64,000 nt of DNA from contig NC_043001.1 in assembly GCF_006345805.1 (NCBI RefSeq), positions 6,262,001-6,326,000 on the forward strand. Direction: 5' to 3'. Made by a program: the position numbers and the translations under genes. The notes below the pieces were generated by a model that saw nothing but the letters and a program-made list of their open reading frames with translations, was not told where the DNA came from and did no database searches. Shown here piece by piece: positions 9,047 to 9,112 of this stretch (its first letter is position 1; each line of letters starts with the position of its first letter). This DNA comes from Octopus sinensis (taxonomy: Eukaryota).

Positions 9047-9112
9047 AGCCTCTAATCTTCAGTCAAGAACCGGATCATCCTCGCAATTTCGGCTGATTAA
9101 TCTTGAGATCGC
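9047..9112 (-). ncRNA. Candidate rearranged (non-circularly permuted) hammerhead inside a TA-flanked repeat (~8975-9388)
   Basis: GCGAU-C-UCAAGA..cagcc-GAA-AUUGC..UCUUGA-CUGAAGA; stem III 5 bp, stem I 6 bp. Confidence 0.6.

What the first reader, a model, noticed from the sequence alone, without database searches (positions are those of the whole stretch)
9047..9112. Second, sequence-unrelated example of the ZYX rearranged hammerhead
Seen on the minus strand: GCGAU-C, UCAAGA, 10 nt ending cagcc, GAA-AUUGC, 14 nt, UCUUGA-CUGAAGA, uuaga-GGCU. Stem III is 5 bp (AUC triplet), stem I is a perfect 6 bp, and a possible stem II GGCU/AGCC follows a 5-nt insert. The order and linker lengths match 16894-16952 but the stem sequences differ entirely, which argues for structural conservation rather than chance.
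Basis: partly seen in the sequence, partly recalled or inferred. Interest (0 to 1): 0.85.

Follow-up and report, generated by a model that had tools for sequence, protein, structure and literature searches.

The report
Open-core scrambled hammerhead in retroelements
This stretch of a very common jumping repeat holds all the parts of a hammerhead, an RNA predicted to cut itself, in a scrambled order and likely with one helix supplied from upstream; the same layout ends Naiad jumping genes, which were reported to lack a normal hammerhead.

Summary
The motif is real. 'ZYX' is the type-SGC order of Eckert et al. 2023, reported only from metatranscriptomes. Here it sits in a 5'-truncated copy (8954-9390, minus) of a 795-nt non-coding repeat. 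Stems I and III covary across 13 subfamilies.

The strand before GAAA pairs with an upstream strand (64 of 65 Watson-Crick, G10.1-C11.1 in 13 of 13) better than with downstream GGCU (23 of 65). The chain is therefore likely open between A9 and G10.1, a layout I did not find in print. An extra helix and a kink-turn-type loop extend stem III.

5' ends of (TA)n-flanked copies pile up just 3' of the predicted cut (772 against 80 matches; 31 of 33 read). This is indirect evidence of cutting in cells. One sister family is the tail of published Naiad elements.

This copy has G>A at 9128 and may be impaired. Cleavage is untested. The scan noted this fold before, in this genome and in others.

The parts
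8954..9390 (-). 5'-truncated copy of a 795-nt non-coding repeat unit (family 1A), flanked by (TA)n
   Evidence: 3826 first-look candidates in G000 (not a copy number)
9135..9141 (-). P0 5' strand (AGUUUUU), predicted weak closing helix with 9047-9053
   Evidence: -3.5 kcal/mol; partner changes GGCU/AACU and AGUU/AGCU keep the pairing
9124..9128 (-). Predicted stem II 5' strand supplied from upstream (family GGCUG; AGCUG in this copy, A9128 replaces G10.1)
   Evidence: (G in 36 of 41 unique 1A copies)
9116..9123 (-). Extension helix X, 5' strand (GCCGGAUC)
   Evidence: -15.0 kcal/mol; compensatory changes in 1B, 1C, 1E, 2A, 2B
9113..9115 (-). Kink-turn-type loop, unbulged strand (G-G-A)
   Evidence: sequence; definition from PMC8191799
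9108..9112 (-). Stem III 5' strand (GCGAU)
9107..9107 (-). Predicted cleavage nucleotide C17 (AUC triplet)
   Evidence: analogy to the hammerhead core; 5'-end pile-up just 3' of it
9101..9106 (-). Stem I strand (UCAAGA)
9091..9095 (-). Stem II 3' strand (CAGCC, C11.1 at 9091), after a 5-nt linker
9083..9090 (-). GAA plus stem III 3' strand (AUUGC)
9077..9082 (-). Kink-turn-type loop, bulged strand (GAG bulge, then G-A-U)
   Evidence: bulge letters vary (GAG, UAA, UAU, AAA) while GAU stays
9069..9076 (-). Extension helix X, 3' strand, running directly into stem I
9056..9068 (-). Stem I strand (UCUUGA) and core CUGAAGA
9047..9053 (-).
16856..16985 (+). Second example (family 2A), same layout; its upstream stem II strand is also mutated (GAACG at 16875-16879; family GAAGG with CCUUC)

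Best explanation
It is a likely self-cleaving hammerhead ribozyme in the scrambled site-GAAA-CUGAnGA order, whose stem II is likely completed by an upstream strand, carried by a non-coding repeat that is likely mobilised by Naiad-type Penelope-like retrotransposons. Shown: core letters, strand order, covarying stems I, III and X, a conserved upstream partner that begins with G10.1, the 795-nt partial-tandem unit ending at (TA)n, the pile-up of 5' ends at +1 to +16, and the same fold in the tail of published Naiad consensus sequences (family 4). Inferred fold: A9 leads out into a weak closing helix P0 instead of into G10.1; stem III bends at a kink-turn so that helix X returns and meets the far ends of stems I and II in a second junction, replacing the usual loop I-loop II contact. 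Inferred role: the RNA cuts after C9107 and releases unit-length RNA from tandem or read-through transcripts; a helper element's endonuclease and reverse transcriptase prime at (TA)n about 150 nt downstream; on cut RNA the enzyme runs off at the new 5' end, and on uncut or re-ligated RNA it reads through to give partial tandems. This copy has A in place of G10.1 and is likely slower or dead.
For: Pair counts over the first five pairs of 13 subfamily representatives (10 majority sequences, 3 single copies): stem I 65 of 65 Watson-Crick, stem III 61 of 65, upstream stem II 64 of 65 with 2-4 pair types at positions 2-5 and G-C at position 1 in 13 of 13. Downstream alternatives give 12, 19 and 23 of 65. 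Nine subfamilies were found by similarity alone, and all 9 have 5-6 upstream pairs. Among 130 unique SGC hits in 1.79 Mb of fetched DNA, 101 have 4 or more upstream Watson-Crick pairs and 0 have that many downstream with a 0-2 nt insert. In family 3 CUGAUGA is followed by CCCC, which cannot pair with GGCCCC. 5' ends: 772 minus-strand matches for window -14 to +17 against 80 for +29 to +59; 31 of 33 distinct places read by hand start at +1 to +16 (binomial p about 1e-6). Family 4 matches by eye the last 200 nt of Naiad_Obim and Naiad_Ovul, and an RT frame lies about 0.7 kb upstream on the same strand in L341.
Against: No cleavage assay, and a core open at A9/G10.1 has no tested precedent that I found. 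The upstream partner was chosen as the best match in a window; per-subfamily shuffle P values are only 0.002-0.12, and the nine unbiased subfamilies give just three independent stem II sequences. Families 3, 3B, 4 and 2F were found with a descriptor that required upstream pairing. Stem I and III counts are partly selected by the descriptor. With G-U pairs allowed, 34 of 130 hits have a direct downstream helix of 4 or more pairs, and 40 of 130 have 4 Watson-Crick pairs after a 3-8 nt insert. Only 2 of 33 5' ends lie exactly at +1; the mode is +8 (8 of 33), where TAAT matches the target repeat; only (TA)n-abutting copies were counted and the two patterns differ. Of 16 family-1 alignments in flanks of other searches, 14 begin upstream of the site. 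No sequence link between family 1A and family 4 was found, so the Naiad helper for this family is inferred. A kink-turn pattern is present in only 5 of 13 subfamilies. P0 is weak.
Confidence: 0.74

Rival explanations
1. Plain type-SGC hammerhead with stem II formed downstream (GGCU/AGCC) after a 5-nt bulge; the upstream strand is incidental.
For: 4 Watson-Crick pairs in 1A-1C; a tie with the upstream partner in this copy (-6.2 each); PLE hammerheads tolerate one extra base between 9 and 10.1 (PMC4209133); family 2 can form a G-U-rich 3-4 bp helix after one extra A.
Against: Lost in 1E, 3 and 3B; 23 of 65 pairs against 64 of 65 upstream; a G-bearing sister gives -9.9 upstream; PMC10085705 reports no insertions above 1-2 nt at this place.
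Confidence: 0.09
2. The fold is real, but the upstream-paired form is a resting state. Cleavage needs a switch to another partner, a dimer of tandem units or a protein, or the structure is mainly a signal for the reverse transcriptase.
For: Two possible partners exist in families 1A-1C and 2; animal PLE hammerheads cleave poorly alone and act as dimers (PMC4209133); many copies read through the site; the nested minimum-energy fold leaves stems I and II unformed (the program cannot form pseudoknots).
Against: The upstream helix keeps the catalytic G10.1-C11.1 register in 13 of 13, which a blocking helix need not do; several families have no second partner; NUH triplet and core letters are kept; 5' ends pile up where all local helices would already be unwound by the enzyme.
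Confidence: 0.15
3. Chance arrangement of short motifs in repeat DNA.
For: No strict SGC hit in 600 kb of arbitrary genome.
Against: 2 hits against 0.01 per shuffled window; compensatory changes and a matched pair insertion and deletion in 1C; same layout in four family groups and in published Naiad tails.
Confidence: 0.01

Closest known systems
Type-SGC hammerhead (HRIMA-1 and variants; Eckert et al. 2023, PMC10085705; seen: start of abstract, parts 2-6 of 8, supplement part 1 and a term search)
   Same: Order site-GAAA-CUGAnGA, core letters, pseudoknotted stems I and II, short linker from stem I to stem II; cleavage shown in vitro at 0.007-0.13 per minute.
   Different: Their stem II follows CUGAnGA directly and blocks were assumed unbreakable; their brace is a helix joining the far sides of stems I and II; none was found in genomes of known organisms. 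Here stem II comes from upstream, stem III is extended and bent, and the host is an animal retroelement.
Naiad Penelope-like elements (Craig et al. 2021, PMC8557442; seen: passages, section 6, supplement searches and part 24)
   Same: (TA)n targets, 5' truncation, partial tandems, inverted pieces; family 4 is the Naiad_Obim/Ovul tail; the paper says Naiads lack canonical hammerheads but marks 'HHR_half_core' for Naiad_Ovul.
   Different: Family 1A has no reading frame and no detected similarity to family 4, so it would be a non-autonomous passenger.
Non-LTR retrozymes and PLE pLTR hammerheads (PMC4209133, passages; bioRxiv 10.64898/2026.07.22.740005, start of abstract and 5 passages, supplements closed)
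   Same: Tandem non-coding units with one hammerhead each, derived from PLE termini; model of cleavage, circularisation and more-than-unit reverse transcription.
   Different: The PLE motifs in the passages read are type I with an intact core; the preprint text has no hit for 'pseudoknot'; circular RNA was not tested here.
Standard kink-turn (PMC8191799, passages)
   Same: [quoted passage not shown]
   Different: Seen by sequence only, in 5 of 13 subfamilies; the others have plain bulges or purine-rich loops at the same place.

Membership tests
Hammerhead ribozyme | CUGAnGA, GAAA and NUH triplet | tested here: met
   all 13 representatives
Hammerhead ribozyme | Stems I and III flank the core and covary | tested here: met
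   65 of 65 and 61 of 65 Watson-Crick with several pair types; partly selected by the descriptor
Hammerhead ribozyme | Stem II closed by G10.1-C11.1 | tested here: met
   13 of 13 with the upstream strand; A-C in this copy
Hammerhead ribozyme | Site-specific self-cleavage | not testable with these tools
   only the indirect 5'-end pile-up
Hammerhead types I, II, III | Circularly permuted order without pseudoknot | tested here: not met
   order is SGC; no Rfam row at the site among 150 shown
Type-SGC hammerhead | Block order site, GAAA, CUGAnGA | tested here: met
Type-SGC hammerhead | Intact block C: stem II within 1-2 nt after CUGAnGA | tested here: not met
   0 of 130 hits with 4 or more Watson-Crick pairs; 34 of 130 if G-U pairs are allowed; 0 pairs in 1A
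Type-SGC hammerhead | Extra helix binding the far sides of stems I and II | tested here: inconclusive
   a different brace (helix X) occupies the strand 5' of stem I; their alignments were not read
Naiad element | One frame with N-terminal GIY-YIG and reverse transcriptase | tested here: not met
   no such frame of 220 aa or more in the 1A unit; RT part present only beside family 4 (Pfam RVT_1 E 1e-4, below its cut-off)
Naiad element | (TA)n targets, partial tandems, inverted truncated pieces | tested here: met
   13 of 28 distinct 1A loci run head-to-tail into a second unit and 5 of 28 have an inverted piece (read by hand; loci chosen as best matches)
Non-LTR retrozyme | Circular monomer RNA in cells | not testable with these tools
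   only assembled contigs were served
Kink-turn | 3-nt bulge plus tandem G:A/A:G pairs | tested here: met
   1A, 1B, 1C, 1E and 4 by sequence; absent in the other 8
Kink-turn | Kinked fold with ions or L7Ae-family protein | not testable with these tools
   needs FRET, probing or a structure

The most novel reading that the evidence does not exclude
A seventh natural hammerhead wiring outside the six block orders: the chain is open between A9 and G10.1, three helical arms join two junctions, a kink-turn folds stem III back, and the ribozyme is active in animal cells. It is the missing ribozyme of Naiad retrotransposons and their passengers, and its cut is recorded in the 5' ends of more than a thousand insertions.
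Probability: 0.65. Interest if true: 0.88.

Novelty: new variant of a known kind. Interest (0 to 1): 0.8.

Why it matters
Non-circularly permuted hammerheads with covariation support were known only from environmental sequence, and their classification assumes that CUGAnGA and stem II are one unbroken block. An active open-core form would break that rule and place such a ribozyme in an animal genome at high copy number. It would also explain why descriptor searches missed ribozymes in Naiads. It makes the role of cleavage in Penelope-like retrotransposition testable, because insertion 5' ends appear to record the cut. It offers a hammerhead scaffold whose ends leave from the core.

Tried and rejected
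Rfam gave no match at the site. The gapless repeat finder was swamped by microsatellites. An arbitrary 600-kb sample gave no strict descriptor hit; the open-core descriptor also misses both window copies because each is mutated in the upstream strand.

Sequencing runs: no RNA holder listed. Contigs from six runs cover the repeat but cannot show ends, strand or level. The drop in contig depth across the site is confounded by subfamily divergence and was not used.

A>G changes in L022 were first taken as a subfamily; its relatives lack them. Subfamily 2D (one rearranged copy) was dropped from the counts. A link of family 3 to an upstream reverse transcriptase was not established.

Literature: searches for 'hammerhead + non-circular permutation', SGC terms (22), 'hammerhead + Penelope + octopus' (21), 'Naiad + hammerhead' (63), 'kink-turn/stem III/retrotransposon' (64) and 'A9/10.1' phrases (67) showed no description of this layout. 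The library lacks most subscription papers. PMC3088659 passages list core insertions elsewhere but no open chain. I did not read the SGC alignments in the supplement of PMC10085705, and the bioRxiv supplements were closed; either could bear on novelty.

Full report
Observation. The minus strand at 9112-9047 reads as described. A descriptor for all six block orders finds two hits in the window, both site-GAAA-CUGAnGA: this one and the one at 16901-16952. The mean in 100 shuffles is 0.01. In 600 kb of arbitrarily placed genome the strict descriptor found none. A profile search found four decayed family copies there (output partly cut). Rfam has no row at the site among 150 of 156 shown.

What is known. 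Eckert et al. 2023 (PMC10085705) call this order type SGC and showed that it cleaves in vitro. They found none in genomes of known organisms, and they assumed that CUGAnGA is followed within 1-2 nt by stem II.

Context. The motif lies in a repeat copy at 8954-9390 in a 2.7-Gb animal genome, with 3826 first-look candidates (not a copy number). The unit is 795 nt, with no long reading frame found. All 28 distinct best loci end at one TA-rich segment about 150 nt past the predicted cut; 13 of 28 run head-to-tail into a second unit and 5 of 28 carry an inverted piece (read by hand; these loci favour long copies).

Subfamilies. Similarity searches gave 1A-1E and 2A, 2B, 2C, 2E. A descriptor then gave 2F, 3, 3B and 4. 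Stems I and III change in step: UCAAGA/UCUUGA, UCAGA/UCUGA, UCGAGU/ACUCGA, CUGUCC/GGACAG, GAGAG/CUCUC. Subfamily 1C loses a pair from stem I and gains one in stem III. Families 1 and 2 are distantly alike (60-64% over about 200 nt), so the two window examples are probably old relatives.

Extra helix and bend. Beyond stem III an internal loop leads into helix X (8 bp here, -15 kcal/mol), whose 3' strand runs straight into stem I. In 1A, 1B, 1C, 1E and 4 the loop is a variable 3-nt bulge followed by GA opposite GA, the kink-turn pattern of PMC8191799. The other 8 representatives have plain bulges or purine-rich loops. The bend is inferred.

Stem II. The strand before GAAA pairs with a strand just 5' of helix X: GGCUG/CAGCC, GAAGG/CCUUC, GAGCA/UGCUC, GGGGCC/GGCCCC, GGCCCC/GGGGCC, GACACC/GGUGUC. 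That is 64 of 65 Watson-Crick pairs, with G10.1-C11.1 in 13 of 13. Downstream registers give 12, 19 and 23 of 65. Of 130 unique SGC hits in fetched DNA, 101 have at least 4 upstream Watson-Crick pairs and none has that directly downstream.

Limits of the stem II result. With G-U pairs allowed, 34 of 130 hits have a direct downstream helix. Single-subfamily shuffle P values are 0.002-0.12. Only three stem II sequences come from the nine subfamilies found without that filter. This copy has A at 9128 (G in 36 of 41 unique 1A copies; 92-99% of contig depth in four runs), so its two partners tie at -6.2 kcal/mol; a sister copy gives -9.9 upstream.

Footprint of cutting. (TA)n followed within 30 nt by the GAAA block gives 772 minus-strand matches. 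The same design anchored 42 nt further 3' gives 80. Of 33 distinct places in the 100 rows listed, 31 begin at +1 to +16 and 2 upstream (p about 1e-6 under even spread). An enzyme copying 3' to 5' would already have unwound these helices, so run-off at a cut end is the simplest reading. But only 2 begin exactly at +1, 8 begin at +8 where TAAT matches the target, and many copies read through the site (14 of 16 flank alignments).

Helper element. Craig et al. 2021 (PMC8557442) report that Naiads target (TA)n, form partial tandems and lack canonical hammerheads, with some 'half cores'. The lead to Naiads came from earlier scan notes. Tested here: family 4 matches by eye the 3' tail of Naiad_Obim and Naiad_Ovul, and L341 has an RT frame about 0.7 kb upstream on the same strand. 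The host is therefore likely an octopus. Three further Naiad records, names not seen, fit the open-core fold by eye, and three others (two of them nematode records) show the CSG order with an intact stem II (56 of 153 core-motif places seen, not a survey). Family 1A shows no similarity to family 4, so its helper is inferred.

Mechanism. Likely fold: stems I, II and III around the usual core; A9 exits into P0; III-kink-X returns to a second junction with the far ends of I and II. Likely role: cleavage after C9107 trims the element RNA; a Naiad-type enzyme primes at (TA)n; cut RNA yields short copies that start just past the site, and uncut or circular RNA yields longer and tandem copies, as proposed for PLEs in PMC4209133. 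Confidence 0.74; switch, dimer or protein-dependent form 0.15; plain SGC 0.09.

Verdict. It works like a hammerhead of the SGC order but fails SGC membership on the intact block C. I did not find the layout in the searches. I reached the open-core reading, before seeing that earlier scan notes report the same fold in this and other genomes; those notes are not independent support. New variant of a known kind; interest 0.8.

Noticed in passing
window 6118-6162 (-) and 6683-6727 (+), inside inverted repeats 5951-6337/6508-6894: Rfam type I hammerheads (35.4 and 29.5 bits) in an inverted partial-tandem arrangement typical of Penelope pLTRs.
   Followed up: no
window 8004 (-), 12395 (+), 26720 (+), 31421 (-), 56247 (+): Further CUGAnGA...GAAAC motifs that look like minimal type I PLE hammerheads, some with an extra A after the core.
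   Followed up: no
window 416-858, 40454-40895, 43032-43279: A repeat with CUGAAGA on both strands and an upstream GAAAC that I could not fit to any block order by eye.
   Followed up: partly
window 31173-31270 (-): Decayed family-2-like copy that starts at a (TA)n run close to its predicted site.
   Followed up: partly
window 8232-8336 (+): 5S rRNA match above the Rfam gathering score (50.8 bits), probably a pseudogene or SINE head.
   Followed up: no
L022:2245-2366 and 2988-3110: Tandem 1B copies with clustered A>G changes that destroy GAAA, possibly RNA editing fixed by retrotransposition; most relatives lack them.
   Followed up: partly
L125-L150: Subfamily 1B forms near-identical arrays of about 735-nt units, up to five or more in a row; 2C copies are also near-identical, so both look very young.
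   Followed up: partly
L312 and L340 (families 3 and 3B): An extra hairpin sits between P0 and the upstream stem II strand; a published Naiad record shows the same by eye.
   Followed up: partly
PMC8557442 supplement parts 13-14: Three Naiad tails, two of them nematode records, show type-CSG hammerheads with an intact stem II, so Naiads may use several openings of the same scrambled class (by eye).
   Followed up: no
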